NCBI GenBank assembly: GCA_900128565.1
Contig: LT635923.1
Coordinates: forward strand, 1-50,604
DNA length: 50,604 nt
DNA from: Stramenopiles sp. TOSAG23-6
Lineage: Eukaryota
Direction: 5' to 3'
Each line of letters begins with the position of its first letter. Position 1 is the stretch's first letter. The translations under genes and the position numbers were made by a program. Shown here piece after piece: positions 6,566 through 50,604 of this stretch. The notes under the pieces were generated by a model. The model was not told the origin of the DNA, made no database searches, and was given only the letters and a program-made list of their open reading frames with translations.

Positions 6566-8300
6566 TTATAAAAGTTGCTTCGGAGTCCTTGGAAAACTTG
6601 ATGATACTGTACCATGTTCATTGCGAAATCCTGGAGTTCTTTTAGCTCTACGACGAAAATTCGCAAATCGATGTTTTAAAACTCGAGGGCGCTTTGGAGT
6701 TTTTAATGACGATTGCTCTGAGATATTTCGTGAAGGTGTCACTGTAGTAGTATGTTTCTTTAAATTATCAATTTGTTTGCTATTATTATTTCGTGACATT
6801 TCATCCAATGTCTTTCTGCCATTTATTGATATTTTATTATTTCGTGACATTTCATCCAATGTCTTTCTGCCATTTATTGGTATTTTCTGACAATTTGTAA
6901 ATGGTGGATTATTATTTCGTGACACTTTGTGCAATTTTGGAATAGCACAATTTTTTTTATTATTATTTTCTACTTTTTGAACATTAGAAAAATCTCCAGA
7001 TTTCCTTGAATTACGAAACTGTGAATTTGTAGAAATATTTCTGCTGTTATTCATTGTATTCGTATTGTTTCTATTATTGATTAACTTTCGAGCTCTACAT
7101 GGTGACGGTGTCAATGTTGCATCGCGAACTCGAGATCTTTTCCGTAATAGCGATGTCACTGAATATTGTGAAGGGGTTTTATTTACATTACGATTTGGTG
7201 TTTTATTAAAATGTCTTTGGCTTTTACTAACAGACATTTGACTTGGATTGATGCCTCTGCGAGATACAGATAACAAATTTGACGATTGTCTTTGTACCAT
7301 TTGATGTGGTGATTGTCTTNGTACCATTTGATGTGGTGATTGTCTTTGAAACTCTTGAATATTTCTATTCATTCTACTTGAAGACATCATTCTACGAGAT
7401 GGAGTGAATATGTTTTGTGTTTTCCGGAATGAATTTTTCTCAGAGCCTTGGGAAGATAGTATTGTATCAGATAGAGCTACTGGGGTACGAAATTGAGTAG
7501 AGAAAGAAGCATTATTTGGATTATAATGATTATTTTTTGGTGTTGTTGCTATATATTTCTCTTTCTCTTGAGAGGAGTCTGTGACGTCATTTTTGTTCAT
7601 GTTTATCAAATAGGATTTATTTTTTGGTGTGTTACTCTTATTGAAGAGTTGTTTTATTCTCTTTCGACCACCCAAAGTATTGAGTGGTTGTTGACTTGTA
7701 CATTGTCTGGTGTCACGTTTTGTGAGAAAATATTTCCAAAAAAAATATCGTTAGGTACACAATTACGTACGAAAACAACATCTGAATTTTAAATTTATGA
7801 TAAACACGCACACGTTGCCGTACTGAGAGTGAGGATTTATTAATAGGATGATTCGATACTGAAGCATTTTGAGCTTGCGCTTGGAGAGATTTCGTTTTCG
7901 TCTCGAGTTGTTCCTGATATTTTTTTAACTCTGAATTTTCTTTACTCAATTTGGATTTTTCCTTCTCAAGATGAGCCAAATACAACGCAACCTGCTTTTG
8001 CTGGAACTCGCGGATTTCTAATACACCGGCCTCTATAGTTTCTGGATTACCAAGGACTTTTCGAGAAACCTCATCTGGTACATCTGAAGAACCTAAGTTG
8101 ATGAACATACAAGAAGCAACATCACATACCTGACATCGGTTTTTCTGGTAGTAGTTGGAGTTTAAACACTTTTTGCAAATAAAGTGCTTACAACTTGTTA
8201 CAAATATATTTGAAAGACAAGATATTTCTAAAAAGCAAACGTTGCAACGCTGTGCATAGTTAGAAGTACTTACATGATCTTTGATTTTTCGTACAGTCAT
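6566..8300 (-). CDS. RING + coiled-coil + S/T/N/R-rich tail protein, RNF212/Zip3-like; exons 8300-7812 and 7714-6566
   Basis: CNVCF..IFVTSCKHFICKKCL..CQVC RING, then IREFQQKQ and a coiled coil as in the RNF212/Zip3/HEI10 family; removing 7715-7811 joins VRQR|DTRQC in frame. Confidence 0.65.
7715..7811 (-). other. Intron-family element E (97 nt, GT...GT), left copy
   Basis: Mirror of 42794-42890. Confidence 0.7.
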
Positions 8301-20771: not shown

Positions 20772-22505
20772 CTACACTTTTACATCTTGAGGACCTTCAT
20801 CTGCGGATGCGTCTAATAAATAATAAATTTTACCCTGGTCTGTCGTTTGATCTGGCAGATAACCGACTTCCTTTTGAATTGCATAACAAACGTAAACAGT
20901 ATCAACCGCACACAACACGATTTCCCCAACAAAGTGCATTACAAGATTGGCGATAGAACCAACGAATAACCCCGAAAACATACTCACAAACTCATTTGTT
21001 TCGGTGTTTCCAAAAAATATCATGCAAACTAGAGTAAACATTGGTATACTCATCGCATACATATACAACAGGAAAAACAAATAGAAAATTATGGGATGGG
21101 ACCAGTCTCCCCCATTATTTTCCAATGTGTTTAGACCAAGCTGATCATCACACCAAGCCCAAGCAGCTAATCCAATACCAAAAGAGACAGCATAGTTTCC
21201 CAACCAAACGACCATTTTGCCTGTAAAGCTAGTAACATATGCATCTTCTAGATGTTTCATAAGAACTGCATAAGAAAATTTTGCAGAGTTCCAGAAACTT
21301 TCTGATGTTATTGCATGGAATACAAGAACAAAACGTGAAATCGTATCGATTACATCGGCAAAGCAACAACATAGAAGCTTCAGAATAATAAATGGAGAAA
21401 TCCAAGCCATCTTACTTTGGGCAAATCTCCGCAAAATTTCGCATATAGCACAAACGCAGGAAGACACTGCAATTACTGGTAAGGATTTGCTAAATGCTAG
21501 CACAAATGAAGTAAGTGCAAGATGATCAGGCTCTTGATTGAAGCACCACGTACCAACTGACATAGATGTAATAAATAAAGAAGCGTGTTTTAAATAAAAT
21601 GCTGACCACATCAGAAGTCCGCCTATTATAATACCCAACCATGTAAACTTATTTTCAGTACCTGCTACACCGTCTTTGCATGTAACATTTACGCTTCGCG
21701 TAAGAAAAATCATCAAATTCACAAGTAATGCAAGAATTCCNAGATAAATCATCTGTACGGGTACAAGAACAAAAAACATGGTCGCACGTGCGAAGATCCC
21801 ACCTACAGCTTGTTCAAGAAAATGAGCAGCATTCAAAAACTTCTGCCTTCTCCAAACCACATAGACCAAATAAATTAACGAAATTGCAGAAACAATAGAA
21901 GCTGATGTATAATGTTCCTTATGGTAGAGATAACCTCCAAAACAGACTGCGCTGTAGTTTATAGATAATTAGATGACAGATTAGTAAAGTGTAGAGTATT
22001 GAAATAAGTGAGTGGCAATATTTTTGATTGAATTTAACATACATCCGAGTACAATTTGCGTAATTACTGTTCCGACGACGAAAAATGTAGCACAAGACTT
22101 CATCAATACCAACCAAAGTAAGGATACACCCACTACTCCAGCAATGAGCAGAGCAGGCACTTCAGGAGCTTTCCTGAAAAATGAGAATAAGGAGTATTCC
22201 TTTTTTTCCAGTCTTCTAGTAGTCTTTTTGTCGATGCATTTACAAATGTCCCGTACAACGTCAGCATTAGGTTTGAACATCTCAATAGGATATTCCTTTA
22301 GATAAGTGTTATTAGGGCAATTAATTATACGACTAGCATACGTTCCTGACGTATTTGCAGATATAAATACATATACAGTCAAAGCAATTTCTGCCAACAC
22401 GGTCAACACAAATAGTAACCCCCAGATTCTGTCAGGAACCCAAGCCGATGGTAGTCTCTCTTCATTAAGGAGAACTTTTGCTTGCAAATAAGGAACGTCT
22501 GCCAT
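20772..22505 (-). CDS. Choline transporter-like (CTL/SLC44/Pns1) membrane protein; exons 22505-22043 and 21946-20772, left copy
   Basis: Multi-TM; D..WGLLF, SKSLPVIA.SS, SRFVLVFHAITSESFWNSAK, AVDTVYVCYA match CTL-family motifs. Confidence 0.85.
21947..22042 (-). other. GT-AG intron (96 nt) unrelated in sequence to the family, left copy
   Basis: Mirror of 28563-28658. Confidence 0.75.
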
Positions 22506-22841: not shown

Positions 22842-25302
22842 CTAAAATTTAAAACCAGCTGTTCGATTTGGATGCATACTACGATTTTTCTTTTCGCCTC
22901 TTCTCTTATTTTTTTCTTTCTTCATACATTTATGCGCAGATCTAGCAGGGTTAATGATCACACCAGCTCTAGTATACACTTCTGGTTTAGTGGCTTCATC
23001 AGTCACTCTGGCTGTGTTAATTTCTCTACCCATCGACCTCCGAAGTGTTGCTTCATATTGTTCCCGAGAGGTAAACGGGTATGGTACACGACTAACTTTA
23101 TATCTTGCAGCTTTCTTGTCTCGTTTTTCTGATATTATGACTAAAGGGAGTTTTGCATCTTTTCGAACCGGATTTGTTTTACTTTTCTTTTTCATTTCAA
23201 TTTTACTACGTTTCGAGTTTTTCTTCGTGACTTTTGATCTTCGCTTTCGTTTTGGTTTTCTCGTAGTAACGCCGACACCAGTCCAATCACCCCACCCTTT
23301 TATTTTATTATCCTCGGCAATTACTTTATTTGATCCTTCAATCTCTTCCTTTTCTCTACGAAATTCTTCCTCTGCCATGGCACCAGCACCAGAAAAAGCA
23401 CGCTGTATGAGTTCCTTCTGTGAAAATCCTTCAGATCCTCCATTTGAAGCATTTGAAGCATTTGAAGCATTTGAAGCACTTTTTTGTGTGCAATTCGTCG
23501 TACGTTGAATTTTATTTTCTTTGATATTTCCAGCATTTTCAGCATCAATTTTCAAAAGTGCTTCTTTGACATTTAATCGTTTTTCCTTGTCATTACGAGA
23601 CTTCTCCTCACGCTCAACGCACCGCCTCTGACGTTTTGATGAATGAGTACTTTGTAACCACGGATTTTCTACCGATTCAATCACACCGCTGGCATCGTCA
23701 GTTTGTCGTGAAAGCTCCAACGGCCGTTTTCTGGTGGTCTTCTTGCCAAGAGGTTTCAAAACATCGCATTTATTTTCCGCCTTTTCTTTGTGATTATTTG
23801 ATTCTTCATTAATGTCACTGACAACACCAGTCTTAGTAGTATTTGTAACATCAGCTTTAGGGTTCGGGTTTTGGCCCCAACCCTTTCCTCCACGCTCACT
23901 TGCTGAAAGTACAACACTCTTTTTTTCTAATTCGGGTAGATGATCCGCCACAGAAATATCGCCCTCAAATTCAAAATTTGGTGTTTCGAATAAGTCTAAC
24001 ATATATTGTGAAAAAATACTTCAAATTTGTTTTTTGTTAGGTACAAAATTTCGTATGAAAAAAAACTAAATTCGAAATTGAAATGAAAACGTACTGGGAA
24101 TGATTTACACTTGTACAATTGGATGTATTTGCTGTGTCAATATTATCATTCATACGAATACGAATTCCATCACTCATCTGGATTTTCTTTAATTGTTGTC
24201 CATCGTTTCCAATAGCGTCAGCAATAAAAGCTTCGGCAGTAGCGTCACGTTTAGCATTTTTAATTGATGTTGATGATGATCCACCAAACGATCTACGAGA
24301 TATATTCTTGGCCTCTTCAAATATTTCCGGTTGTTTTCCTTTATTTATTTCGGAAAATTCAGCGAGAAGATTTTCAGCATTTTTCTTCGCAGCAGAACGT
24401 TGTTTCACCAAAGCTCGTTGCATAAATTTAAGCCCGAATAATCCTTTTTCTGGCATTTTTGTTTTACTATCATTTTCAATCTCGACAAGAATCTTCCGAG
24501 CTTTTTCTTCAAGAATTCGTTGCTGCTTTGGGACATTTTTTCCAGATGCTTCCGTCGAGGTTCCAGTAGGGTTAGGATTGTCTTCTTCTACATCACTATC
24601 ACTATCATCAGACTTCTTTTTACGACCAAGTATGTATTGTGAAAAAAAAAATGTTACGGAAAAAAAACGTTAGGTACAAAATTTTCTATGAAAAACTTAA
24701 AATTCATAATGATGAAAACGAACATTTTTGCGTGAAGCAATTCGCGTTGTCGCAATTCATCAAGAACAGCTTTCCGTGCATCATTACTATTCCCACCCCC
24801 ACGTTTTAACGTCTTCTTCATCCATTTCGAAGTATTTCGATGTTTCAATGTCATTCGAAGCTCTGCTCGTTTACGTGCTTCTTTTTCTTCCATTTCTCGT
24901 GCCATTTCCGGATTTGTTTCCCAGAGCAATTCACGTTCCTTTTCTGTTTTTTTAGCGTCTTGTCTTTTTCGTATTTTACGGAAAAGCTTAGATTTAATTT
25001 TTTTTGTACGCTTTAACTTTTGCTCTTCGTAAAACATAAGAGACCTCATCTTTTGCAACTCACGACGCCTAGATTCGATTTGTTTCGGAGTTAACGAATG
25101 AGCCTCAAAAAGCTCATCAGTCTCATCTTCCATCGCTTTTTTCTCATCGCTCATTCCAGTATGATCTAATATTGCAGCAACTTCACGTTCCATATCCGTA
25201 GTTGGTTCGAATTTCGTTCTTAAGGTTGCTGTAGACAATTTCTGTCTAGGTGCCTCATTCACACTCACAAAAGAAAGATGAGAAGATTGTCGATTTTTTT
25301 GT
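22842..25302 (-). CDS. UTP14: U3 snoRNA-associated protein UTP14, 5'-truncated at the palindrome axis; exons 25302-24724, 24631-24095, 24000-22842, left copy
   Basis: Mirror of 25303-27763. Confidence 0.9.
24001..24094 (-). other. Intron-family element D (94 nt, GT...AT), left copy
   Basis: Mirror of 26511-26604. Confidence 0.7.
24632..24723 (-). other. Intron-family element C (92 nt, GT...AT), left copy
   Basis: Mirror of 25882-25973. Confidence 0.72.
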
Positions 25303-27763
25303 ACAAAAAAATCGACAATCTTCTCATCTTTCTTTTGTGAGTGTGAATGAGGCACCTAGACAGAAATTGTCTACAGCAACCTTAAGAACGAAATTCGAAC
25401 CAACTACGGATATGGAACGTGAAGTTGCTGCAATATTAGATCATACTGGAATGAGCGATGAGAAAAAAGCGATGGAAGATGAGACTGATGAGCTTTTTGA
25501 GGCTCATTCGTTAACTCCGAAACAAATCGAATCTAGGCGTCGTGAGTTGCAAAAGATGAGGTCTCTTATGTTTTACGAAGAGCAAAAGTTAAAGCGTACA
25601 AAAAAAATTAAATCTAAGCTTTTCCGTAAAATACGAAAAAGACAAGACGCTAAAAAAACAGAAAAGGAACGTGAATTGCTCTGGGAAACAAATCCGGAAA
25701 TGGCACGAGAAATGGAAGAAAAAGAAGCACGTAAACGAGCAGAGCTTCGAATGACATTGAAACATCGAAATACTTCGAAATGGATGAAGAAGACGTTAAA
25801 ACGTGGGGGTGGGAATAGTAATGATGCACGGAAAGCTGTTCTTGATGAATTGCGACAACGCGAATTGCTTCACGCAAAAATGTTCGTTTTCATCATTATG
25901 AATTTTAAGTTTTTCATAGAAAATTTTGTACCTAACGTTTTTTTTCCGTAACATTTTTTTTTTCACAATACATACTTGGTCGTAAAAAGAAGTCTGATGA
26001 TAGTGATAGTGATGTAGAAGAAGACAATCCTAACCCTACTGGAACCTCGACGGAAGCATCTGGAAAAAATGTCCCAAAGCAGCAACGAATTCTTGAAGAA
26101 AAAGCTCGGAAGATTCTTGTCGAGATTGAAAATGATAGTAAAACAAAAATGCCAGAAAAAGGATTATTCGGGCTTAAATTTATGCAACGAGCTTTGGTGA
26201 AACAACGTTCTGCTGCGAAGAAAAATGCTGAAAATCTTCTCGCTGAATTTTCCGAAATAAATAAAGGAAAACAACCGGAAATATTTGAAGAGGCCAAGAA
26301 TATATCTCGTAGATCGTTTGGTGGATCATCATCAACATCAATTAAAAATGCTAAACGTGACGCTACTGCCGAAGCTTTTATTGCTGACGCTATTGGAAAC
26401 GATGGACAACAATTAAAGAAAATCCAGATGAGTGATGGAATTCGTATTCGTATGAATGATAATATTGACACAGCAAATACATCCAATTGTACAAGTGTAA
26501 ATCATTCCCAGTACGTTTTCATTTCAATTTCGAATTTAGTTTTTTTTCATACGAAATTTTGTACCTAACAAAAAACAAATTTGAAGTATTTTTTCACAAT
26601 ATATGTTAGACTTATTCGAAACACCAAATTTTGAATTTGAGGGCGATATTTCTGTGGCGGATCATCTACCCGAATTAGAAAAAAAGAGTGTTGTACTTTC
26701 AGCAAGTGAGCGTGGAGGAAAGGGTTGGGGCCAAAACCCGAACCCTAAAGCTGATGTTACAAATACTACTAAGACTGGTGTTGTCAGTGACATTAATGAA
26801 GAATCAAATAATCACAAAGAAAAGGCGGAAAATAAATGCGATGTTTTGAAACCTCTTGGCAAGAAGACCACCAGAAAACGGCCGTTGGAGCTTTCACGAC
26901 AAACTGACGATGCCAGCGGTGTGATTGAATCGGTAGAAAATCCGTGGTTACAAAGTACTCATTCATCAAAACGTCAGAGGCGGTGCGTTGAGCGTGAGGA
27001 GAAGTCTCGTAATGACAAGGAAAAACGATTAAATGTCAAAGAAGCACTTTTGAAAATTGATGCTGAAAATGCTGGAAATATCAAAGAAAATAAAATTCAA
27101 CGTACGACGAATTGCACACAAAAAAGTGCTTCAAATGCTTCAAATGCTTCAAATGCTTCAAATGGAGGATCTGAAGGATTTTCACAGAAGGAACTCATAC
27201 AGCGTGCTTTTTCTGGTGCTGGTGCCATGGCAGAGGAAGAATTTCGTAGAGAAAAGGAAGAGATTGAAGGATCAAATAAAGTAATTGCCGAGGATAATAA
27301 AATAAAAGGGTGGGGTGATTGGACTGGTGTCGGCGTTACTACGAGAAAACCAAAACGAAAGCGAAGATCAAAAGTCACGAAGAAAAACTCGAAACGTAGT
27401 AAAATTGAAATGAAAAAGAAAAGTAAAACAAATCCGGTTCGAAAAGATGCAAAACTCCCTTTAGTCATAATATCAGAAAAACGAGACAAGAAAGCTGCAA
27501 GATATAAAGTTAGTCGTGTACCATACCCGTTTACCTCTCGGGAACAATATGAAGCAACACTTCGGAGGTCGATGGGTAGAGAAATTAACACAGCCAGAGT
27601 GACTGATGAAGCCACTAAACCAGAAGTGTATACTAGAGCTGGTGTGATCATTAACCCTGCTAGATCTGCGCATAAATGTATGAAGAAAGAAAAAAATAAG
27701 AGAAGAGGCGAAAAGAAAAATCGTAGTATGCATCCAAATCGAACAGCTGGTTTTAAATTTTAG
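25303..27763 (+). CDS. UTP14: U3 snoRNA-associated protein UTP14, 5'-truncated; exons 25303-25881, 25974-26510, 26605-27763
   Basis: KNRQSSHLSF, MRSLMFYEEQKLKRTKKIKSK.FRKI, RAELRMTLKHRNTSKW, GLFGLKFMQRA, ENPWL, GWGDWTG, VIISEKRDKK..VPYPFTSREQYE are Utp14 hallmarks. Confidence 0.9.
25882..25973 (+). other. Intron-family element C (92 nt, GT...AT)
   Basis: GTTCGTTTTC...TACCTAAC(25929-25936)...TTCACAATACAT; phase 2; gives ELLHAKI-LGRKKKSDDSDSD; no AG between branch motif and end. Confidence 0.72.
26511..26604 (+). other. Intron-family element D (94 nt, GT...AT)
   Basis: GTACGTTTTC...TACCTAAC(26562-26569)...TTCACAATATAT; phase 2; gives NHSQ-LDLFE in frame. Confidence 0.7.
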
Positions 27764-28099: not shown

Positions 28100-29833
28100 A
28101 TGGCAGACGTTCCTTATTTGCAAGCAAAAGTTCTCCTTAATGAAGAGAGACTACCATCGGCTTGGGTTCCTGACAGAATCTGGGGGTTACTATTTGTGTT
28201 GACCGTGTTGGCAGAAATTGCTTTGACTGTATATGTATTTATATCTGCAAATACGTCAGGAACGTATGCTAGTCGTATAATTAATTGCCCTAATAACACT
28301 TATCTAAAGGAATATCCTATTGAGATGTTCAAACCTAATGCTGACGTTGTACGGGACATTTGTAAATGCATCGACAAAAAGACTACTAGAAGACTGGAAA
28401 AAAAGGAATACTCCTTATTCTCATTTTTCAGGAAAGCTCCTGAAGTGCCTGCTCTGCTCATTGCTGGAGTAGTGGGTGTATCCTTACTTTGGTTGGTATT
28501 GATGAAGTCTTGTGCTACATTTTTCGTCGTCGGAACAGTAATTACGCAAATTGTACTCGGATGTATGTTAAATTCAATCAAAAATATTGCCACTCACTTA
28601 TTTCAATACTCTACACTTTACTAATCTGTCATCTAATTATCTATAAACTACAGCGCAGTCTGTTTTGGAGGTTATCTCTACCATAAGGAACATTATACAT
28701 CAGCTTCTATTGTTTCTGCAATTTCGTTAATTTATTTGGTCTATGTGGTTTGGAGAAGGCAGAAGTTTTTGAATGCTGCTCATTTTCTTGAACAAGCTGT
28801 AGGTGGGATCTTCGCACGTGCGACCATGTTTTTTGTTCTTGTACCCGTACAGATGATTTATCTNGGAATTCTTGCATTACTTGTGAATTTGATGATTTTT
28901 CTTACGCGAAGCGTAAATGTTACATGCAAAGACGGTGTAGCAGGTACTGAAAATAAGTTTACATGGTTGGGTATTATAATAGGCGGACTTCTGATGTGGT
29001 CAGCATTTTATTTAAAACACGCTTCTTTATTTATTACATCTATGTCAGTTGGTACGTGGTGCTTCAATCAAGAGCCTGATCATCTTGCACTTACTTCATT
29101 TGTGCTAGCATTTAGCAAATCCTTACCAGTAATTGCAGTGTCTTCCTGCGTTTGTGCTATATGCGAAATTTTGCGGAGATTTGCCCAAAGTAAGATGGCT
29201 TGGATTTCTCCATTTATTATTCTGAAGCTTCTATGTTGTTGCTTTGCCGATGTAATCGATACGATTTCACGTTTTGTTCTTGTATTCCATGCAATAACAT
29301 CAGAAAGTTTCTGGAACTCTGCAAAATTTTCTTATGCAGTTCTTATGAAACATCTAGAAGATGCATATGTTACTAGCTTTACAGGCAAAATGGTCGTTTG
29401 GTTGGGAAACTATGCTGTCTCTTTTGGTATTGGATTAGCTGCTTGGGCTTGGTGTGATGATCAGCTTGGTCTAAACACATTGGAAAATAATGGGGGAGAC
29501 TGGTCCCATCCCATAATTTTCTATTTGTTTTTCCTGTTGTATATGTATGCGATGAGTATACCAATGTTTACTCTAGTTTGCATGATATTTTTTGGAAACA
29601 CCGAAACAAATGAGTTTGTGAGTATGTTTTCGGGGTTATTCGTTGGTTCTATCGCCAATCTTGTAATGCACTTTGTTGGGGAAATCGTGTTGTGTGCGGT
29701 TGATACTGTTTACGTTTGTTATGCAATTCAAAAGGAAGTCGGTTATCTGCCAGATCAAACGACAGACCAGGGTAAAATTTATTATTTATTAGACGCATCC
29801 GCAGATGAAGGTCCTCAAGATGTAAAAGTGTAG
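28100..29833 (+). CDS. Choline transporter-like (CTL/SLC44) protein; exons 28100-28562 and 28659-29833, right copy
   Basis: Mirror of 20772-22505. Confidence 0.85.
28563..28658 (+). other. GT-AG intron (96 nt), non-family sequence
   Basis: GTATGT donor, TACTAAT (28619-28625), in-frame stop inside; only the second AG (CGCAG, 28658) restores frame: IVLG-F-CFGGYLY. Confidence 0.75.
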
Positions 29834-29955: not shown

Positions 29956-31603
29956 TTATATTAAAAAATTGTTGGGATCTTTATCCAAGCGACTGAAGTG
30001 TTGTGATCTTTCAATGTGTAACTTACTCTTGTCAGATCTGTTTTTCTTTTGTCTTAAATCATAATCATTTCTTGTTTTCTTTTGTCTTGATGGTAAATCA
30101 TAATCATTTCTTGTTTTCTTTTGTCTTGATGTTAAACCATAATCATTTCTTGTTTTCTTTTGTCTTAATGTTAAACCATAATCATTTCTTGTTTTCCTTT
30201 GTCTTAATGGTAAATCATCATCATCGCTTGTACTCACATCACTATCATCATCGCTTGTACTCACATCACTATCATCATTGCTTGTACTCATATCACTATC
30301 ATCATGACTTCGGCAATTTTTATTCTCAGGGCTATCCAAAAACGAATTATTTTCTTCACATTTATCAACTCCGGCAGTTCTGTCCAAAAACGAATTATTT
30401 TCTTCACATTTATCAACTCCGGCAGTTCTGCGTAATCCAAATTTATTTTCATGTTGGAATGAAACCTTTTCGAGTACATCTTTCCAAATCAAATACCGAA
30501 TATATTTATTAAGTTTATTTTTTGACGGAATGACGTCCACAGCTTCTTCCTCACAATACATCCAAATATCCGCATGGATTCTGAAAAAATATTTCGAAAA
30601 AAAATTCGTTAGGTACAAAATTTCATACGAAAAAAAAAATTACATTCAAATTGATATGAAAACGTACTATAGTTGGAGCATCGCCTTGGTATTGACAATT
30701 ATCTATTGCTTTATATATATATGTCAGAACGTTTGGTGTTGGCATATCTACCTTTTTTAAAGATTTCTTTGTATACTCTAAAGGGATGTCTATCGACTTT
30801 CGAACTTGCTGAACTGAATTTCCTCTTATGCTTTCATTTTTTTCTTTTTGTTTTACTGCTAACATAATGTAGTAGCTCCAATGTTTATAGTGCTGTAATG
30901 ATGGACTCGGATTATACGGTTCATTTTGTATCAATTTGGTCAACATCTTCACGCAAGCTAAATTTATAAGCTTTTCCTTATACCCAGAACCGCCAATAGC
31001 AACGTGTTTCAGAGGACAATGTACCCTTCCAAAACAGTTCGAAGTCGAGACACAAACCTCATAAATACCATTTTGAGCATTATGTGACTGGTTTACGGAT
31101 ATCTGATGCTTATGGCAGTATTCTTTAGTTATCGTTTTCGCAAAACGGAAATCTGTTTTTTCTCGTATAATTGCGGACATAGCTAGTGCTGCTTGATTCT
31201 CCAGCATTCCCCAAGCTTTTTCCCTTCGAACCCCGTTTTGTAAATGTTTTACAGAAAATACATTCTTTACACTTTTCGATAACCCTACACACATACAACA
31301 ACATTTTAGCTCCATAGAACCACCATTATTCACAATCTTTGTATATCTCGTATATGTTATATCGCAGTCACTAAAACCAAACGTGTTTTTGATTAAAGTA
31401 ACTAAACCCTGTTTTGTCAAACTCAAACCCTGTTTTGTTAAACCCTTTTTTGACAAACCCTTTTCCACATGATTTCCTGAAGACACGCGCATTTGCGGAC
31501 GAGGTCGACGCTTCTTGTACGGCCTTTCCCGTTTATATTGCCTCATTTGTGACTTTTGTCGTGATGCAAGTCTAATAGCAAGTGTACTTGCACCAAACAT
31601 CAT
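29956..31603 (-). CDS. dsRBD-like/H15-like protein, right copy
   Basis: Mirror of 19002-20649. Confidence 0.6.
30574..30667 (-). other. Intron-family element B, right copy
   Basis: Mirror of 19938-20031. Confidence 0.72.
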
Positions 31604-35673: not shown

Positions 35674-37044
35674 ATGACAAAGTATCGCGTTCGGATTGGT
35701 GATTCGTTCTTTCATGGAGATAGCAGGAGTGCTTTGGATAAGACTACTAGTACTGATGCAACCAAATATTTTACTTTCCGTTACCAATGTAAACCGGAGA
35801 GTGTATCCACTGAAGAGCCAACATCAATTAGACTTCGGCAAAAACAGACTGATGTAGAATGGGGAAAAAATGTTTTAAAAGGAAGGCATGATGAAGTGAA
35901 AACGACTGGTCAGATGAATTCTCCAACTACTGGTGACTGCATTCTCGTCTTTGACTCGACGAAAAACGAGTTCGTGCTTCAACGCATTCATCATAATGTA
36001 CACAGCCTACGACACATACGCACTGAAAATGGACTCAACACATCCGTTTCCAAAACACTTCAAAAAAATCCTCGGCGGCGAAGGTTGAAACGTCGAAATT
36101 CCGAATTGACAAGAAGTAACCCTAACCCTAATTCTGAATTGACAAGAAGTACACGTTGTGAGAACTCTGGTGATAGTTCAAAAAAGCGAATAAAGGAATC
36201 TCCTTTGGTAGTACTAGATAATATATCGAAATCATCCCTCTCAAACTCAAGTACAGCAGTAGATTATACCCCTAACCCTAATACCTCTAATCCTAATAAC
36301 TCAAGTAAAGCACCAGATGCATTTGGTAAATTGCTTCGTATTCAACGCCTCCTTGGTGAAGCTTCAAAAGCACATGATTGCTCAGTATACTCCGCGCTAG
36401 AAGAGAAGAGAAAAAACCTTGTTCGTAGACATTTTCCAAAAAAAAGTACCCAAAATGTTTTGAATTCGGTTGGATGTGACAAATCTGGAAGTGTTTCTAG
36501 TAGTGGCAATAGTGATAGTGAAAATAGTGAAAATGAAATTATTGGTGATATGAAAATAAATGCTGATAGCAATAGTGGTAGTAGTATTGACAGTGCAAGT
36601 GATAATGATGAAGCTAGCGCAAGTGGTAATAATAATAGCTCAAGTAGCGATAGTGAAAATGAAATTATTGGTGATATGAAAATAAATACAGATAGCAATA
36701 GTGGTAGTAGTAGTGACAGTGCAAGTGATAATGATGCTAGCGCAAGTGATGATGATGCTAGCGCAAGTGATGATGATGCTAGCGCAAGTGATGATGATGG
36801 TAGTAATAGTGATGATGCTAATACAAGTGACAATGATTCTAATAATAGTGATGATGCTAATACAAGTGATGATGACGCTAATACAAGTGATGAAAATGCT
36901 AATATAAGTGATGAAAATACAAGTGATGATAATGCTAGTGCAAGTGATGAAAATACAAGTGATGATAATGCTAGTGCAAGTGATGATGATGCTAATAATA
37001 GTGATGACGATAATGGTATTAGATGTGATGACGAAGACGGATAG
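35674..37044 (+). CDS. EAF: EAF-domain protein, right copy
   Basis: Mirror of 13561-14931. Confidence 0.75.
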   Translation: MTKYRVRIGDSFFHGDSRSALDKTTSTDATKYFTFRYQCKPESVSTEEPTSIRLRQKQTDVEWGKNVLKGRHDEVKTTGQMNSPTTGDCILVFDSTKNEFVLQRIHHNVHSLRHIRTENGLNTSVSKTLQKNPRRRRLKRRNSELTRSNPNPNSELTRSTRCENSGDSSKKRIKESPLVVLDNISKSSLSNSSTAVDYTPNPNTSNPNNSSKAPDAFGKLLRIQRLLGEASKAHDCSVYSALEEKRKNLVRRHFPKKSTQNVLNSVGCDKSGSVSSSGNSDSENSENEIIGDMKINADSNSGSSIDSASDNDEASASGNNNSSSSDSENEIIGDMKINTDSNSGSSSDSASDNDASASDDDASASDDDASASDDDGSNSDDANTSDNDSNNSDDANTSDDDANTSDENANISDENTSDDNASASDENTSDDNASASDDDANNSDDDNGIRCDDEDG

Positions 37045-37141
37045 TATTAGAGGATGTCAATTTTAGCAGCATATCATAGTTTTAAACAAATAAATCAAGT
37101 ATGATATCAACTAAAAACAAATACACTTATATTGTACACAT

Positions 37142-42304: not shown

Positions 42305-44039
42305 ATGACTGTACGAAAAATCAAAGATCATGTAAGTACTTCTAACTATGCACAGCGTTGCAACGTTTGCTTTTTAGAAATATCTTGTCTTTCAAATATA
42401 TTTGTAACAAGTTGTAAGCACTTTATTTGCAAAAAGTGTTTAAACTCCAACTACTACCAGAAAAACCGATGTCAGGTATGTGATGTTGCTTCTTGTATGT
42501 TCATCAACTTAGGTTCTTCAGATGTACCAGATGAGGTTTCTCGAAAAGTCCTTGGTAATCCAGAAACTATAGAGGCCGGTGTATTAGAAATCCGCGAGTT
42601 CCAGCAAAAGCAGGTTGCGTTGTATTTGGCTCATCTTGAGAAGGAAAAATCCAAATTGAGTAAAGAAAATTCAGAGTTAAAAAAATATCAGGAACAACTC
42701 GAGACGAAAACGAAATCTCTCCAAGCGCAAGCTCAAAATGCTTCAGTATCGAATCATCCTATTAATAAATCCTCACTCTCAGTACGGCAACGTGTGCGTG
42801 TTTATCATAAATTTAAAATTCAGATGTTGTTTTCGTACGTAATTGTGTACCTAACGATATTTTTTTTGGAAATATTTTCTCACAAAACGTGACACCAGAC
42901 AATGTACAAGTCAACAACCACTCAATACTTTGGGTGGTCGAAAGAGAATAAAACAACTCTTCAATAAGAGTAACACACCAAAAAATAAATCCTATTTGAT
43001 AAACATGAACAAAAATGACGTCACAGACTCCTCTCAAGAGAAAGAGAAATATATAGCAACAACACCAAAAAATAATCATTATAATCCAAATAATGCTTCT
43101 TTCTCTACTCAATTTCGTACCCCAGTAGCTCTATCTGATACAATACTATCTTCCCAAGGCTCTGAGAAAAATTCATTCCGGAAAACACAAAACATATTCA
43201 CTCCATCTCGTAGAATGATGTCTTCAAGTAGAATGAATAGAAATATTCAAGAGTTTCAAAGACAATCACCACATCAAATGGTACNAAGACAATCACCACA
43301 TCAAATGGTACAAAGACAATCGTCAAATTTGTTATCTGTATCTCGCAGAGGCATCAATCCAAGTCAAATGTCTGTTAGTAAAAGCCAAAGACATTTTAAT
43401 AAAACACCAAATCGTAATGTAAATAAAACCCCTTCACAATATTCAGTGACATCGCTATTACGGAAAAGATCTCGAGTTCGCGATGCAACATTGACACCGT
43501 CACCATGTAGAGCTCGAAAGTTAATCAATAATAGAAACAATACGAATACAATGAATAACAGCAGAAATATTTCTACAAATTCACAGTTTCGTAATTCAAG
43601 GAAATCTGGAGATTTTTCTAATGTTCAAAAAGTAGAAAATAATAATAAAAAAAATTGTGCTATTCCAAAATTGCACAAAGTGTCACGAAATAATAATCCA
43701 CCATTTACAAATTGTCAGAAAATACCAATAAATGGCAGAAAGACATTGGATGAAATGTCACGAAATAATAAAATATCAATAAATGGCAGAAAGACATTGG
43801 ATGAAATGTCACGAAATAATAATAGCAAACAAATTGATAATTTAAAGAAACATACTACTACAGTGACACCTTCACGAAATATCTCAGAGCAATCGTCATT
43901 AAAAACTCCAAAGCGCCCTCGAGTTTTAAAACATCGATTTGCGAATTTTCGTCGTAGAGCTAAAAGAACTCCAGGATTTCGCAATGAACATGGTACAGTA
44001 TCATCAAGTTTTCCAAGGACTCCGAAGCAACTTTTATAA
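42305..44039 (+). CDS. RNF212/Zip3-like RING protein; exons 42305-42793 and 42891-44039, right copy
   Basis: Mirror of 6566-8300. Confidence 0.65.
42794..42890 (+). other. Intron-family element E (97 nt, GT...GT; AACGTG direct repeat spans both junctions)
   Basis: GTGCGTGTTT...TACCTAAC(42848-42855)...CTCACAAAACGT; phase 0; first downstream AG (42897-42898) is out of frame with the nearby GT donors. Confidence 0.7.
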
Positions 44040-44460: not shown

Positions 44461-45920
44461 TCATAGGATTTTTTTTGAGTGATGATTTCCGTCATTCGAT
44501 TTAGAAGTGTAGTCAGGTTCGTCAGTCATTATTTTATTGTATACATTTTCCCCCCATTTTACTGCTTTCTGTGTTGTATGGGTAAAAGCATCGCTTAGAT
44601 TGTCTCTAAAATCGTTTAACGAAGAATTAGAATCTGATACATGTGGAATTTTATTTGTAGTCTTATCATTTCCTTTAGTACGAGTATTTTGATGTTGTAG
44701 TTGATTACGAGCTGCATTTAGATTAGTTCTGGCAGATATCAATGAAGGATCCTGTATTATGAAAAAAAATGTTTTAGTGAAAAAAATCGTTAGGTATGAA
44801 ATTTTCAAGAAAAAAAAAACCTTTAGGAAAAAAATTAATGAAAACGGACATATACTAAAGCTTTTTCGTATGCTGTTATCGCATTATGAAACTCTCTTAA
44901 ATTGTAATGAGCTGTACCTAATCGTGCATGAGCTTTAGCAAACCTAGGTTTTAACCGAAGTGCCGCACGACAATCAAAAATAGCTTTTTTGTAATGTAAA
45001 AGATACATCTGAGCAGCAGCTCTATTTGAAAAGAAAATATGAGAATCAGGACCATTTGGGGACAGCTCCAACGCTTTTGTATAAAAGTTAATCGCTACTT
45101 GAGGTTGACCATTGCGTAATGCATCATTACCCTTGATTTTCAACGCATTGGAATTATTGATGTTTAATGTAGTAGGTTTACTAGGACTAACTACATCACT
45201 TATATTTGTAGTAGTCTTTTTATACGACATGGAATCTTGTTCTCGGGAATGAGGTGTTAGTGGGACTTCAGCTGCGGCTGGGATGGGTGGCAGAGGTATT
45301 GAACTCGTTGAACACTCCAATGATTCCTCTTCATCTTGTACATGTCGATTCTTGATACGTGTTTGAGCTTCAAGCATCAAGTTTTCCCACGTAAATTTGT
45401 TAGTTTCCGAATCTAATAGTTCACAAAATGCTTCAATACTATCGTAATGCCTTTTCAATCTGTCTTCTAAAAGTGTACTTACTTCAACAAGTACACGTCT
45501 TTGCTCGCGAACTGTCGATGGTAATCCTGACACACTTACTGCATCAATTGAGGGTAATAAAGAGGAAGCTATTTGGCCGGTGTACTTTTGAAGCCGGGAT
45601 TTCCAGTAATTGATAGCTCGACGACCTTCAGATAAACGCACAGGGTCGTCGCCGTATAAAAACGAAGCATTTACGTTATCAACGATTTGTTTCCCTCTGT
45701 CTGCTGCAGCGCATAATTCACAAATTGCTGTAGCTGTAGATGTATCATACTGTATATTACACATTGGTGTATCAGATAAAGAGTCATGACTTGAGGTACG
45801 ATTTATTGAAGAGTCATGACTTGAGGTACGTTTTATTGAAGGAGTATCAACCACCTTTTGCTCTTGGTGAATTCCACTTTCATTGCCTATGCCTTTAGCA
45901 GAAAGATTAGTACTACTCAT
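44461..45920 (-). CDS. TPR-repeat protein, right copy
   Basis: Mirror of 4685-6144. Confidence 0.85.
44752..44849 (-). other. Intron-family element A (GT-AG), right copy
   Basis: Mirror of 5756-5853. Confidence 0.9.
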
Positions 45921-47918: not shown

Positions 47919-49047
47919 ATGGATCCTGTTCTGAACAAGATGCTTGCAGAAGCTTCCTTTGAATCATCAACTGTATCGCCATCTCGAAAGCTTATTTATC
48001 AACTTCAAAAGGAAGGTGGTGTAAACACTGCGAAACTTTTAGTCCAAACAGCTGAAGCACTGAAAAAGGCTAATTTAGTGGGAAGCTCTGACTTTACACG
48101 GCGCGAGGCCGAACGTTTGGCTGATCTAACCAGAGATTCAACATTTGAAGCAATTGGTACAATGGAAATGAATGACGATGCAGGTATAGCAGTCACGATG
48201 CAACATCGTTGCGCATGGCTCGGCGCCTATAGTTTTGCCTCGATCCAGTGGGCCGAGTCAAGTTTCTTAGCCTCAAATGGTTCTATTGATGGTGGCAGAG
48301 CTGCACTGAGAGCAATTGATTTAGCGTTACTTCGAGGTGGACCGCATTGGAATTTAATGGCTAAAGATATTATATCAAAGGCATCCAAAGCAGTTCAGTT
48401 AAACAACCCTCATGATACTCAAAACCCTAACCCTACAAACGAAACGATTGATAGTTGTCCAGAAATTCACTCATCTAGTTGTAATGTAAAACGTAAAGTG
48501 CTGAAAGAGTCAACACCATTATGGGTTCGTGGGAGTAAATCCAAGTATGTTTCACCAATAAGTCGTGTCCCTTTTAGAACGAATGACGGAATTCAGAAAA
48601 TGACAATTTCTGAGTTTAAAGAAAATTTTATGAAGTCAACCACTCCTGTTATAATCACAGGTAGTTTGTCTGAGTGGCCAGCGCTCAAAACTGGCAGTAA
48701 ACATTTATGGTCTGATGCATCATATCTAAAGAAAGTAGCTGGTGATAGAATTGTCCCTGTAGAAGTATGTAATAAAGCTGATAACACACAAACATATTTA
48801 TCTAATAGCTGGGCTCAAAAAGTGATGACTCTGTCCGACTTTATTACAAACCATGTAATTCCAAGTGAAAGTTGTGGACGTTTTTCAAAATGTTCAATTG
48901 ATAATACTCAATGTGCCTATCTAGCTCAGCATCCTTTATTTGATCAAATACCATTTTTAAAAGAAGATATTATACAGCCATCTCTTTGTAGTGCTCTGTT
49001 ACCAACTGACACTGGATCGGATGCTACTACTGTTCATGTGAATGCAT
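47919..49047 (+). CDS. KDM8: JMJD5/KDM8-like N-terminal exon, right copy
   Basis: Mirror of 1558-2686. Confidence 0.8.
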
Positions 49048-49140
49048 GTATGTTTTATTTTTTTTCAAATTCGAAGTTTTTTTTTCGTACGAAATTTTGT
49101 ACCTAACGAAAAATATTTCAAATATTTTTCCAAAATACAT
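49048..49140 (+). other. Intron-family element F (93 nt, GT...AT)
   Basis: GTATGTTTTA...TTTCGTACGAAA..TACCTAAC(49100-49107)...CCAAAATACAT; donor is phase 1 but the downstream long ORF needs phase 0. Confidence 0.65.
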
Positions 49141-50516
49141 ACGGTTTTGAAACGAAAACAAAAACAAAGAATAAGAGATCTAGTTCCTTTGTTACGCTTT
49201 TCTATGCCAATGCAACCAACAAAAAAAACCCTAACCCTAATGAAAGGAGAAAAAAACGAAATGCCAGAATATTTTAGTGTTTTAATTCCTTCGAGATTAT
49301 CACCAAATACTACACATACTATACCATATAATGATTACAACAAACTCATTAAAAGTAATACAAAATATAGTATAGATTCGATGATGTCGCATTCAGTACC
49401 TATTCTTCAATCACAAATAATATCAGGACCGATGTTTAAATTATCAGCTAATGGTAGAGATTACGAACGATGTATCATTGAAATGCATGTAAACGTAAAT
49501 AAAAATTCAGAAAAAAATAAAAAATCAGAAAATCTAAGTGATCTAGATCATAAAATAAGTATACGCTTCAAGTGGTTTGGATCCGGGACAAATCTTCGGC
49601 CTAACCCTAACCCTAACCCTAATTCCATGTCTCATAGTCCTCCCTCAGAGAAAAAAGATGTTGAAACGTCTTCACATGAACAAATATTGAATAAAGGCTT
49701 TCTCTGGAAACGATCTTGGCGATATGGGATGCTTACTTGGGAACGACGTTTTTGTCAACTTCGCTTTCGGGCTCATGCGTCTTTAACGAAATCTACAGTA
49801 TACTGTGGAGGAATATTTTCGTATGCCAAAACTCAAGTTGATCTTCGTTTATTAGAAAAATCCGGTTCTATAAAAAATGTTTATTTTGCAGATGGTAGTG
49901 GAGGAACTAGTGTTTTATCATGCCAAGATGAAGAAAAAAAGAAAGGCACATTTGTGCTGAATATTGATGGTAAGAAATTGACTCTCCGAGCAAAAACAGT
50001 CGGTGAGGCGCGTTCATGGATCAATTCTATTAATCATATGATATTAGTCTTAACTCAAAGTAATACGAAAAATAACGTAAATAATTATAAAGATGATGAT
50101 GTTACAGACAGTAGTAATCATTATAAACCTCAAATGATTCGTGTACGTTTTCGCAATTTCAAAATTTCAATTTTTTTTTCGTACGAAATTTTGTACCTAA
50201 CAAATTTTAGTTTTTTTTTCGAAATATTTTTTCACAATACATGGTTCTTCTCGTGATTTGGCCGGAGATGGAAGTATTCATACGTGGCACTGTCTTCATA
50301 TAAATCCACCATTGGTAGAAAATTTAAGTTCGGCATTTGAATCTTCTAGTGTAGATCATTCTATAGACTATATAGACAAAGACTCTAAATATTCTTCAAG
50401 TCAAGTATCAGCACCAAGCCTATTCAATCCTAGTGTAATTGGTAGTTTTGATATCTCAGTTTTTAATAAATCAGTTCGAACAAATTCAGCATCTTCTGAT
50501 GTGGAAGTCCTTACAT
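49141..50516 (+). CDS. PH-domain protein, internal exons 49141-50142 and 50243-50516, right copy
   Basis: Mirror of 89-1464. Confidence 0.75.
50143..50242 (+). other. Intron-family element G (100 nt, GT...AT)
   Basis: GTACGTTTTC...TACCTAAC(50194-50201)...TTCACAATACAT; phase 0; joins QMIR|GSSRD in frame. Confidence 0.7.
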
Positions 50517-50604
50517 GTATGTTTTATTTTTTTTTCAAATTCGAATTTATTTTTTTATAAAAATTTTGTACCTAACAAATTTTAGTTTTTTTTTGAAATA
50601 TTTT
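50517..50604 (+). other. Intron-family element H (partial; window ends inside it)
   Basis: GTATGTTTTA...TACCTAAC(50569-50576)...GAAATATTTT. Confidence 0.7.

What the first reader, a model, noticed from the sequence alone, without database searches (positions are those of the whole stretch)
28563..28658. Fixed intron geometry suggests 3' splice sites are measured from the branch point rather than found by scanning to the first AG
Seen: distances from donor G to branch A are 59, 58, 53, 57, 60, 58, 57, 58 nt (A-H). Distances from branch A to the 3' end are 38, 35, 38, 36, 36, 34, 42 nt (A-G). The CTL-gene intron is unrelated in sequence yet has the same architecture (61 and 34 nt; 96 nt total). 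Its frame is restored only if the good-looking TACAG 29 nt from the branch is skipped for CGCAG at 34 nt. B, D and G also contain an AG between the branch motif and the inferred end. Known: the canonical model takes the first AG downstream of the branch point. Inference: a ruler-like mechanism (about 34 nt minimum) would explain tolerance of non-AG ends and would reflect the machinery, not just repeat ancestry.
Basis: partly seen in the sequence, partly recalled or inferred. Interest (0 to 1): 0.7.

Follow-up and report, generated by a model that had tools for sequence, protein, structure and literature searches.

The report
Repeat introns ending without AG
Eight of the nine introns here are copies of one repeated intron, which explains their matching layout, and most of them seem to end without the usual AG signal at a conserved end motif rather than at a measured distance from the branch point.

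Summary
The measurements are right. I reproduced every distance: donor to branch 53-61 nt, branch to 3' end 34-42 nt, and extra AGs at 10, 18, 28 and 29 nt.

- Eight introns are copies of one roughly 95-nt repeat family (nhmmer E 7e-5 to 3e-19). Their shared layout is inherited, so the window holds only two independent intron lineages.
- A fixed count from the branch A is excluded. The in-frame distances fall in three classes modulo 3.
- The family's last 17 columns are as conserved as its donor and branch site (0.87, against 0.57 in the spacers). This points to a sequence-defined end.
- The CTL case, a CAG at 34 nt used over a CAG at 29 nt, fits the published competition between closely spaced AGs. 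An in-frame alternative that uses the first AG also exists.

"First AG after the branch" does fail. With the conserved donors it keeps the reading frame in 2 of 7 introns. The homologous register does so in 7 of 7 and ends in CAT (4), CGT (1) or CAG (2). Homologue alignments support three junctions: U1 (non-AG), T and CTL.

No RNA evidence was obtained.

The parts
28563..28658 (+). CTL-gene intron, 96 nt, phase 1. It is GTATGT...TACTAAT...TACAG-CGCAG and is unrelated to the repeat family. The mirror copy is at 21947-22042 on the minus strand.
   Evidence: Removing 96 nt gives 32 residues between QIVLG and RRQKF, the same spacing as homologue P0002. Local alignment score is 1036, against 1026 for the 87-nt alternative. 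Not hit by the family profile.
28619..28625 (+). Best branch-site candidate TACTAAT, with branch A at 28624. A weaker CTAAT lies at 28633-28637.
   Evidence: Read from the sequence; positions. The match to the yeast TACTAAC consensus is recalled, not tested.
28649..28658 (+). Two CAGs 5 nt apart. TACAG ends at 28653 (29 nt from the branch A, out of frame with the GTATGT donor). CGCAG ends at 28658 (34 nt, in frame).
28100..28562 (+). CTL exon 1, from the ATG to the donor.
   Evidence: It aligns to the N-terminal part of P0002, read by eye.
28659..29833 (+). CTL exon 2, holding the Pfam Choline_transpo domain.
   Evidence: PF04515, E 3e-28. (P0001 at 99% identity, P0002 at 42%).
25882..25973 (+). 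Family copy U1 in UTP14, 92 nt, GTTCGT...CCTAAC...ACAT. Distances 53/38 nt, no AG in the tail. The same mRNA results if the borders are read 2 nt to the left (AT...AC).
   Evidence: The spliced product LHAK-I-LGR aligns without gaps to LHRA-I-MNR (P0005) and LHRT-I-LNR (P0006). This register scores best of six tested for P0005 and P0006 and ties one shifted register (a+6) for P0011.
26511..26604 (+). Family copy U2 in UTP14, 94 nt, GTACGT...ATAT. Distances 57/36 nt. An AAG at 18 nt is also in frame.
   Evidence: The junction lies in a part of UTP14 that does not align to homologues.
30574..30667 (-). Family copy M, 94 nt, GTACGT...CCAT. Distances 58/35 nt. A T-run plus CAG at 28 nt is out of frame.
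   Evidence: The host gene has no homologue in 1.84 billion representatives, so only reading-frame continuity supports the junction.
42794..42890 (+). Family copy R in a RING-finger gene, 97 nt, GTGCGT...ACGT. Distances 60/36 nt, no AG in the tail. The 5' flank also ends in ACGT.
44752..44849 (-). Family copy T in a TPR gene, 98 nt, GTCCGT...ACAG. Distances 59/38 nt. This is the one family copy that ends in AG, at the homologous register.
   Evidence: The spliced AYEKALVY|DPSLISARTNL aligns without gaps to TPR repeats of P0016, P0017, P0018 and P0022.
49048..49140 (+). Family copy C after a truncated JmjC (Cupin_8) reading frame, 93 nt, GTATGT...ACAT. Distances 58/34 nt. The 3' flank does not continue the JmjC domain.
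50143..50242 (+). Family copy P1 in a PH-domain gene, 100 nt, GTACGT...ACAT. Distances 57/42 nt. A TAG at 10 nt is out of frame.
50517..50604 (+). Family copy P2, cut off by the window end. Donor GTATGT at 50517, branch A at 50575 (58 nt).
   Evidence: (E 7e-5).

Best explanation
The matching layout comes mainly from ancestry. Eight of the nine introns in the 25-kb arm are diverged copies (mean 72% pairwise identity) of one introner-like element of about 95 nt. It sits in sense orientation inside unrelated genes and carries its own GTNYGT donor, (T)ACCTAAC branch site and a conserved 3' module (T-run, then CACAATACAT).

The ninth intron (CTL) is an ordinary, unrelated intron of similar size with GTATGT, TACTAAT and CAG.

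In the family the 3' cut lies at the end of the conserved terminal motif, 34-42 nt after the branch A. It moves with that motif when the spacer changes length. The acceptor is therefore defined by local sequence within a branch-distal zone, not by a counted distance.

The terminal dinucleotide there is AT in five copies, GT in one and AG in one. So exon ligation in this organism most likely tolerates a non-AG end (inferred).

Nearer AGs are passed over for reasons that are partly ordinary:
- 10 nt is too close to the branch.
- In CTL, two CAGs 5 nt apart compete, and only the distal one gives a readable message.

Shown: repeat-family membership, the distances, reading-frame continuity, and agreement of three junctions with homologues. 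Inferred: that the non-AG copies are really spliced at that register, and the branch A itself.
For: Family. nhmmer finds exactly 8 copies in the arm (E 3e-19 to 7e-5) and nothing in the CTL intron. Mean pairwise identity is 0.72.

Junction register. With the aligned donor and the aligned 3' register, 6 of 6 copies that have both flanks join their two long reading frames. Chance for that is (1/3)^6, about 0.0014 by my arithmetic.

Junctions checked against homologues.
- U1: gapless LHAK-I-LGR against LHRA-I-MNR and LHRT-I-LNR. Scores are 298/92/103 against P0005/P0006/P0011. That is the highest of six registers for P0005 and P0006 and tied with a+6 for P0011. The in-frame AG at 68 nt gives 274/76/93.
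- T: a gapless TPR repeat across the CAG junction.
- CTL: the same 32-residue spacing as P0002.

First-AG model. It keeps the frame in 2 of 7 introns.

Against a fixed count. In-frame distances fall in classes 2,0,2,0,2,0 and 1 modulo 3.

Conservation. The terminal 17 columns score 0.87, the spacers 0.57.

Structure. No conserved RNA structure could set the site (0 pairs). The CTL tail does not fold better than shuffles (z +1.15).

Literature.
- AGs closer than 12-15 nt to the branch are bypassed, and closely spaced AGs compete (PMC1431707, passages).
- Yeast second-step factors favour sites 12 or 21 nt or more from the branch, and their loss activates HAU and BG sites (PMC11651659, passages).
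Against: - No RNA evidence. The near-identical database proteins P0001 and P0014 have unspliced reading-frame lengths.
- For U2, M, R and P1 the junction rests on reading frame only, which fixes it modulo 3. In U2 an AAG at 18 nt is in frame and in M a GAG at 59 nt is in frame.
- M's host gene has no homologue at all.
- Score differences between U1 registers are small (4-24 units), and a+6 ties for P0011.
- U1's product is equally explained by AT...AC borders.
- Copy C does not restore its gene.
- The contig is a palindromic artefact, so other local rearrangements cannot be excluded.
- With one independent intron, a machinery-level distance preference is not excluded.
Confidence: 0.55

Rival explanations
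1. The spliceosome of this organism cannot use, or strongly disfavours, any site nearer than about 30-34 nt to the branch. It then ligates at the first acceptable site in a window of about 34-42 nt with little regard for AG. The geometry would reflect the machinery as well as ancestry.
For: All inferred cuts lie 34-42 nt from the branch A. All bypassed AGs lie at 10, 18, 28 and 29 nt. Two of them (M at 28, CTL at 29) are good T-rich CAG sites at a distance that scanning would normally accept. The unrelated CTL intron falls in the same window. In yeast, dedicated factors promote branch-distal sites (PMC11651659, passages).
Against: - Only two informative cases. CTL's AGs are 5 nt apart, inside the published competition range (PMC1431707). 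M's gene is an orphan.
- U2's AAG at 18 nt is in frame and cannot be called bypassed.
- A window cannot pick the exact bond. The conserved terminal motif suggests that sequence does that.
- A strict count is excluded by the modulo-3 classes.
- Seven of the eight distances are inherited.
Confidence: 0.2
2. The family copies are removed by a diverged minor (U12-type-like) spliceosome. That system is known to accept non-AG ends and to place the 3' cut relative to the branch site.
For: - U12-type introns tolerate varied ends. [quoted passage not shown]
- The family has a long conserved 5' motif (first 12 columns 0.88).
- Its ACCTAAC branch motif resembles TTCCTTAAC in 6 of 9 positions, by my own comparison.
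Against: - The 5' end is GTAYGT, with G at +5 and T at +6, not RTATCCTT.
- The branch lies 34-42 nt from the end, not about 10-15 nt.
- No snRNA gene is in the arm and no genome is held, so the machinery cannot be checked.
Confidence: 0.07
3. The non-AG copies are not cleanly spliced. They would be recent insertions, pseudogene debris, or products of amplification and assembly errors, and the apparent frame-restoring register would be misleading.
For: The contig is an artificial-looking perfect palindrome. Both of its ends fall inside a family copy. Copy C joins a truncated JmjC frame to an unrelated frame. M's gene has no homologue. No transcript was seen.
Against: - 6 of 6 two-flank copies restore long frames at one homologous register.
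- UTP14, normally essential (recalled), carries two copies. Its spliced product aligns to homologues across U1.
- Copies are 61-84% identical pairwise, so they are not fresh insertions.
- The same G-to-T difference at the same position in five copies is not a plausible sequencing error.
Confidence: 0.1

Closest known systems
Introner elements: repeated, transposon-like intron families in Micromonas, Aureococcus, dinoflagellates and others. Sources: PMC4540971 (search listing and start of abstract only); PMC12130899 (passages).
   Same: Many sequence-similar introns sit in unrelated genes, in sense orientation, each carrying its own splice signals. Here they make up 8 of 9 introns in 25 kb.
   Different: No consistent terminal inverted repeat or target-site duplication was seen in the flanks. 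R (ACGT/ACGT) and C (CAT/CAT) show short matches only. The curation in PMC12130899 lists accepted 3' ends as AG and AC. Here the inferred ends are mostly AT. Genome-wide copy number is unknown.
Constrained branch-point-to-AG distances in intron-poor eukaryotes (Irimia and Roy 2008, PMC2483917; abstract and passages).
   Same: Strong GTAYGT and CTAAC signals and a narrow branch-to-end range in a compact, intron-poor genome.
   Different: The published preferred distances are short: 2-10 nt in several yeasts, and about 20-35 nt as a broad peak in Ostreococcus. All end in AG. Here the range is 34-42 nt, mostly non-AG, and seven of the eight values are inherited from one element.
Yeast second-step factors Slu7, Prp18, Prp22 and Fyv6 (PMC11651659, passages; PMC10711555, search listing and start of abstract).
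   Same: There is a protein-based preference for branch-distal sites, at 12 or 21 nt or more. Non-YAG sites, including HAU (the CAT seen here), can be ligated when fidelity is relaxed.
   Different: In yeast the non-YAG sites appear in mutants and are mostly branch-proximal. Here the non-AG sites would be the normal, branch-distal ones. The factor content of this organism is unknown.
Mammalian scanning model and its exceptions (PMC1431707, passages; it cites Smith 1989 and 1993 and Chua and Reed 2001, which I did not read).
   Same: AGs under 12-15 nt from the branch are bypassed (P1, 10 nt). Closely spaced AGs compete (CTL, 5 nt apart).
   Different: It does not explain cuts at CAT or CGT, nor the bypass of M's CAG at 28 nt for a non-AG site 7 nt further on.
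U12-type introns, including Physarum's expanded set (bioRxiv 10.1101/2020.10.12.336362, passages). Distance-based 3' choice in U12 introns is recalled from Dietrich et al. 2001, not read.
   Same: This is the textbook case of a 3' cut placed relative to the branch with a relaxed end dinucleotide. GT-AT occurs.
   Different: The donor motif and the branch-to-end distance do not fit (see the membership test).
Non-canonical introns of the tunicate Fritillaria borealis (PMC13326754, abstract only).
   Same: A natural lineage in which most introns escape GT/AG yet are removed by the major spliceosome, with altered 3'-end readers (U2AF paralogues).
   Different: That lineage is an animal, and there both ends are non-canonical. 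Here the 5' end is strictly GT and the branch site is strong.

Membership tests
Major-spliceosome (U2-type) intron with yeast-like signals | 5' end GTAYGT-like | tested here: met
   9 of 9 introns start with GTNYGT: GTATGT x3, GTACGT x3, GTTCGT, GTGCGT, GTCCGT.
Major-spliceosome (U2-type) intron with yeast-like signals | CTAAC/CTAAT branch motif upstream of the 3' end | tested here: met
   CCTAAC is present in 8 of 8 family copies and TACTAAT in CTL. The branch A itself is predicted, not mapped.
Major-spliceosome (U2-type) intron with yeast-like signals | 3' end YAG | tested here: not met
   Met in CTL and T only. At the frame-restoring homologous register, U1, U2, M, C and P1 end in AT and R ends in GT. 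U1 and R have no AG in the tail.
Major-spliceosome (U2-type) intron with yeast-like signals | Removal restores the coding frame and the protein | tested here: met
   The frame is restored in 7 of 7 introns that have both flanks and continuing frames. Homologue alignment supports 3 of them. Copy C fails. No RNA evidence.
Introner / introner-like element family | Many sequence-similar introns in unrelated genes | tested here: met
   8 copies across the UTP14, orphan, RING, TPR, JmjC and PH-domain genes, with nhmmer E 3e-19 to 7e-5. Similarity extends through the spacers (0.57), beyond the splice signals.
Introner / introner-like element family | Transposon hallmarks (terminal inverted repeats, target-site duplication) | tested here: inconclusive
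   Flanks compared by eye. Matches occur only in R (ACGT) and C (CAT), with a 2-nt AT in U1. An internal 12-nt palindrome TTTCGTACGAAA is present.
Introner / introner-like element family | High copy number genome-wide; presence/absence between strains | not testable with these tools
   No genome is held. Two metagenome scans found nothing from this organism.
U12-type (minor) intron | 5' motif RTATCCTT | tested here: not met
   The consensus is GTACGTTTTCAT, with G at +5 and T at +6.
U12-type (minor) intron | Branch motif TTCCTTRAC about 10-15 nt from the 3' end | tested here: not met
   The motif is GTACCTAAC and the distance is 34-42 nt.
U12-type (minor) intron | Minor snRNAs present in the genome | not testable with these tools
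   No Rfam match in the arm. No genome is held.
Ruler mechanism (3' cut at a fixed count from the branch A) | One constant branch-to-end distance across introns | tested here: not met
   The distances are 38, 36, 35, 36, 38, 42 and 34 nt. Allowing shifts of 3 nt, they still fall in three classes modulo 3.
Ruler mechanism (3' cut at a fixed count from the branch A) | End sequence free to vary | tested here: not met
   The last 17 alignment columns are conserved at 0.87, against 0.57 in the spacers. Only seven related copies were compared, so the test is weak.
Lineage-wide constrained branch-to-3' distance (Irimia and Roy type) | Narrow distance distribution among unrelated introns | tested here: inconclusive
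   The window holds only two independent intron lineages, the family and CTL.

The most novel reading that the evidence does not exclude
An uncultured marine eukaryote routinely ligates exons at a branch-distal site that lacks AG (mostly CAU|, about 34-42 nt after a strong CCUAAC branch site). That relaxed second step has let a GT...AT introner family spread into about half of its genes. It would be a natural counterpart of the yeast prp18 and fyv6 low-fidelity state, but used as the normal mode.
Probability: 0.35. Interest if true: 0.75.

Novelty: new variant of a known kind. Interest (0 to 1): 0.5.

Why it matters
How the spliceosome picks the 3' bond is still debated, because the YAG signal is so short. 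A wild organism whose main intron family has a textbook donor and branch site but ends in AT would show that AG recognition can be relaxed in nature while the first-step signals stay strict. It would also give a handle on which second-step factors or U2AF-like readers set that fidelity, and on how relaxed acceptor rules help introner families spread.

The specific ruler idea matters less. A fixed count is excluded here, and distance preferences are already known from yeasts and from U12-type introns.

Public RNA runs that hold part of this stretch exist, so a direct test looks feasible.

Tried and rejected
- Read laying. The RNA runs' shares (0.22 and 0.16 of sampled words, one sample) therefore give no evidence on splicing or expression.
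- Whole genome. None is held.
- Metagenome contigs. A CTL-protein scan found no relative. A 17-nt family motif gave 64 loci, and 0 of 64 had family-like flanks on inspection.
- Protein database.
  - CTL exon 2 gave 2 hits. P0001 is 99% identical but has the length of an unspliced frame.
  - UTP14 exon 3 gave 10 distant hits and none near-identical.
  - The TPR exon gave P0014, 100% identical and again the length of an unspliced frame.
  - No transcript-derived protein spanning a junction was found.
- Exon 1 of the orphan gene that hosts M. 0 hits among 1.84 billion representatives, so that junction could not be checked.
- Structure. RNAalifold on 7 copies gave 0 pairs. Single-sequence folds gave no significant masking of the bypassed AGs: CTL z +1.15 and +1.68; M z -1.15, where a local hairpin puts the CAG in a stem and the junction in the loop, but 32 of 200 shuffles fold as well.
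- Taxon. The protein atlas gave only generic eukaryotic SNF8 clusters. The best named UTP14 hits were two oomycetes, which is a weak hint of a stramenopile.
- Earlier findings. There were none for this genome or this sequence.
- Rfam and tRNA scans of the arm found nothing.
- Re-reading the family as AT...AC introns (borders 2 nt to the left) was considered and rejected. It fits only U1 and C and the 5' end of P2, and it creates a stop in T.
- DNA-level excision like ciliate internal eliminated sequences (IESs) was considered and rejected. There are no TA-bounded ends, the splice signals are clear and the standard genetic code applies.
- Literature searches for this organism's introns and for GT-AT introns found no description of such a family. 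They cover only the held library.
Full report
WHAT THE WINDOW IS

The 50,604-base window is a perfect palindrome. It has 0 mismatches to its own reverse complement, its centre is at 25302/25303, and its four Ns are placed symmetrically. Every feature is therefore present twice, and I worked on the right arm (25303-50604).

The arm is compact (GC about 0.32-0.40) and holds about 14 gene models by my count. They include UTP14, a choline-transporter-like (CTL) gene, a DnaJ, EAF, EAP30/SNF8, a LYR protein, a JmjC/Cupin_8 frame, and RING, TPR, LRR and PH-domain proteins.

No genome is held for it. Two seawater-metagenome runs from one study hold 0.77 and 0.54 of its sampled words. The best named UTP14 relatives were two oomycetes, a weak hint at a stramenopile.

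THE OBSERVATION

Every number in the finding reproduces.

|---|---|---|---|---|---|
| T | A | 44849-44752 (minus) | 98 | 59 | 38 |
| M | B | 30667-30574 (minus) | 94 | 58 | 35 |
| U1 | C | 25882-25973 | 92 | 53 | 38 |
| U2 | D | 26511-26604 | 94 | 57 | 36 |
| R | E | 42794-42890 | 97 | 60 | 36 |
| C | F | 49048-49140 | 93 | 58 | 34 |
| P1 | G | 50143-50242 | 100 | 57 | 42 |
| P2 | H | donor 50517, cut by the window end | - | 58 | - |
| CTL | - | 28563-28658 | 96 | 61 | 34 |

- CTL has CAGs ending at 28653 and 28658.
- Extra AGs lie in M (28 nt), U2 (18 nt) and P1 (10 nt).
- A profile of the family finds exactly these eight copies in the arm (E 3e-19 to 7e-5) and does not touch the CTL intron.

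ARE THE JUNCTIONS REAL?

No RNA evidence could be obtained. I used proteins instead.

- CTL. Removing 96 nt gives 32 residues between QIVLG and RRQKF, as in the 42%-identical homologue P0002. The score is 1036. GTATGT joined to the first AG gives 30 stops. A weak donor GTTAAA at 28567 joined to the first AG (87 nt) is in frame and scores 1026. It is disfavoured mainly by donor quality.
- U1. The product LHAK-I-LGR aligns without gaps to LHRA-I-MNR (P0005) and LHRT-I-LNR (P0006).
  - This register scores 298/92/103 against P0005, P0006 and P0011. That is the best of six registers for the first two and tied with a+6 for the third. The nearest in-frame AG (68 nt) scores 274/76/93.
  - U1 has no AG in its tail, and the first AG downstream is out of frame. 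So this intron, in a normally essential gene, has no usable AG.
  - Because its 5' flank ends in AT, GT...AT and AT...AC borders give the same message.
- T. The spliced AYEKALVY|DPSLISARTNL aligns without gaps to TPR repeats of several proteins. T is the one family copy that ends in CAG, and it does so at the register homologous to the others' CAT.
- U2, M, R and P1. Only reading-frame continuity is available.
  - At the aligned donor and the aligned 3' register, 6 of 6 two-flank copies join their long frames. Chance for that is about 0.0014 by my arithmetic.
  - M's gene has no homologue in 1.84 billion representatives.
  - U2's junction lies in a region that does not align.
- Copy C does not rejoin its gene. 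The JmjC frame ends about 45 codons later, and the long downstream frame is a different one.

TESTING THE TWO MODELS

First AG after the branch. With the conserved donors this keeps the frame in 2 of 7 introns (T, and U2's AAG at 18 nt). It fails in M (28), CTL (29), P1 (10), U1 (54) and R (44).

Ruler. The in-frame distances are 38, 36, 35, 36, 38 and 42 in the family and 34 in CTL.
- Reading frame fixes each distance only modulo 3. Even so, they fall in classes 2,0,2,0,2,0 and 1, so no single count from the homologous branch A can place the cut.
- The cut travels with the terminal motif when the spacer changes length. P1 has an extra stretch and C is shorter.
- That motif (T-run, then CACAATACAT) is conserved at 0.87. 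The donor scores 0.88 and the branch region 0.91, while both spacers score 0.57.
- No conserved RNA structure exists that could set the site (0 pairs).
- The bypassed AGs are not significantly masked by structure.

WHAT IT MOST LIKELY IS

- The layout of A-H is inherited from one introner-like element. CTL is one unrelated intron of similar size.
- The acceptor in the family is defined by a conserved end motif within a branch-distal zone.
- Its end is AT in five copies, GT in one and AG in one. Exon ligation without AG is therefore the simplest reading. It is inferred, and U1 is the best-supported case.
- The bypassed AGs are partly ordinary. An AG 10 nt from the branch is too close, and CTL's two CAGs are 5 nt apart. 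Both are published exceptions to scanning (PMC1431707, passages).
- M's CAG at 28 nt, passed over for a CAT 7 nt further on, is the one case that a minimum-distance rule would explain better. It sits in an orphan gene.

COMPARISON WITH WHAT IS KNOWN

- Narrow branch-to-AG distances with strong signals are known in intron-poor lineages, at shorter distances and with AG (PMC2483917, passages).
- Yeast Slu7, Prp18, Prp22 and Fyv6 promote sites 12 or 21 nt or more from the branch. Their loss activates HAU and BG sites (PMC11651659, passages). So a CAU acceptor is chemically possible for the major spliceosome.
- U12-type introns are the classical case of relaxed ends, and GT-AT occurs in Physarum (bioRxiv 10.1101/2020.10.12.336362, passages). 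The donor motif and the distance here do not fit that class.
- Fritillaria shows that a lineage can move most of its introns away from GT/AG by changing the 3'-end readers (PMC13326754, abstract).
- Introner surveys list AG and AC as accepted 3' ends (PMC12130899, passage).
- My searches of the held library found no family with a strict GT and CTAAC and an AT end. That is not proof that none is in print.

VERDICT

- The ruler is not supported. A fixed count is excluded.
- The rejection of first-AG scanning is supported.
- The notable residue is a probable GT...AT introner family, which needs RNA confirmation.

Noticed in passing
window 1-50604 (centre 25302/25303): The whole window is a perfect inverted duplication, with 0 mismatches and symmetric Ns at 7320, 21741, 28864 and 43285. 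The centre cuts the UTP14 gene. It looks like an amplification or assembly artefact (a hairpin-type chimera) rather than biology.
   Followed up: partly
window 47919-49250: The JmjC/Cupin_8 frame covers only profile positions 3-118 of 252 and stops at family copy C. The rest of the domain is not downstream. Read 2 nt further on, the 3' flank would give W-F-stop. This may be a truncated gene, or a chimeric join inside the repeated intron.
   Followed up: partly
window 50517-50604 and its mirror 1-88: Both contig ends fall inside a copy of the intron family, as expected if the assembly broke at a high-copy repeat.
   Followed up: no
family copies, e.g. window 50180-50191: The element holds an internal 12-nt perfect palindrome TTTCGTACGAAA just upstream of the branch motif. 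GTAC recurs in the donor, the middle and the branch site. Its meaning is unknown.
   Followed up: no
window 42790-42793 and 42887-42890; 49045-49047 and 49138-49140: In copies R and C the last 4 and 3 exon bases before the donor (ACGT, CAT) equal the last bases of the intron. This could be a remnant target-site duplication or an insertion-site preference. Other copies do not show it.
   Followed up: partly
window 29956-31603 (minus strand): A two-exon gene of about 517 codons, host of copy M, has no detectable homologue among 1.84 billion cluster representatives. Its second exon holds 39-nt and 27-nt tandem repeats (30041-30310).
   Followed up: partly
window 36520-37050: There is a long array of 21-nt and related repeats encoding an acidic D/S/N-rich tail in the EAF-domain gene.
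   Followed up: no
window 28864: An N sits inside CTL exon 2. The 99%-identical database protein P0001 has L at that residue.
   Followed up: no
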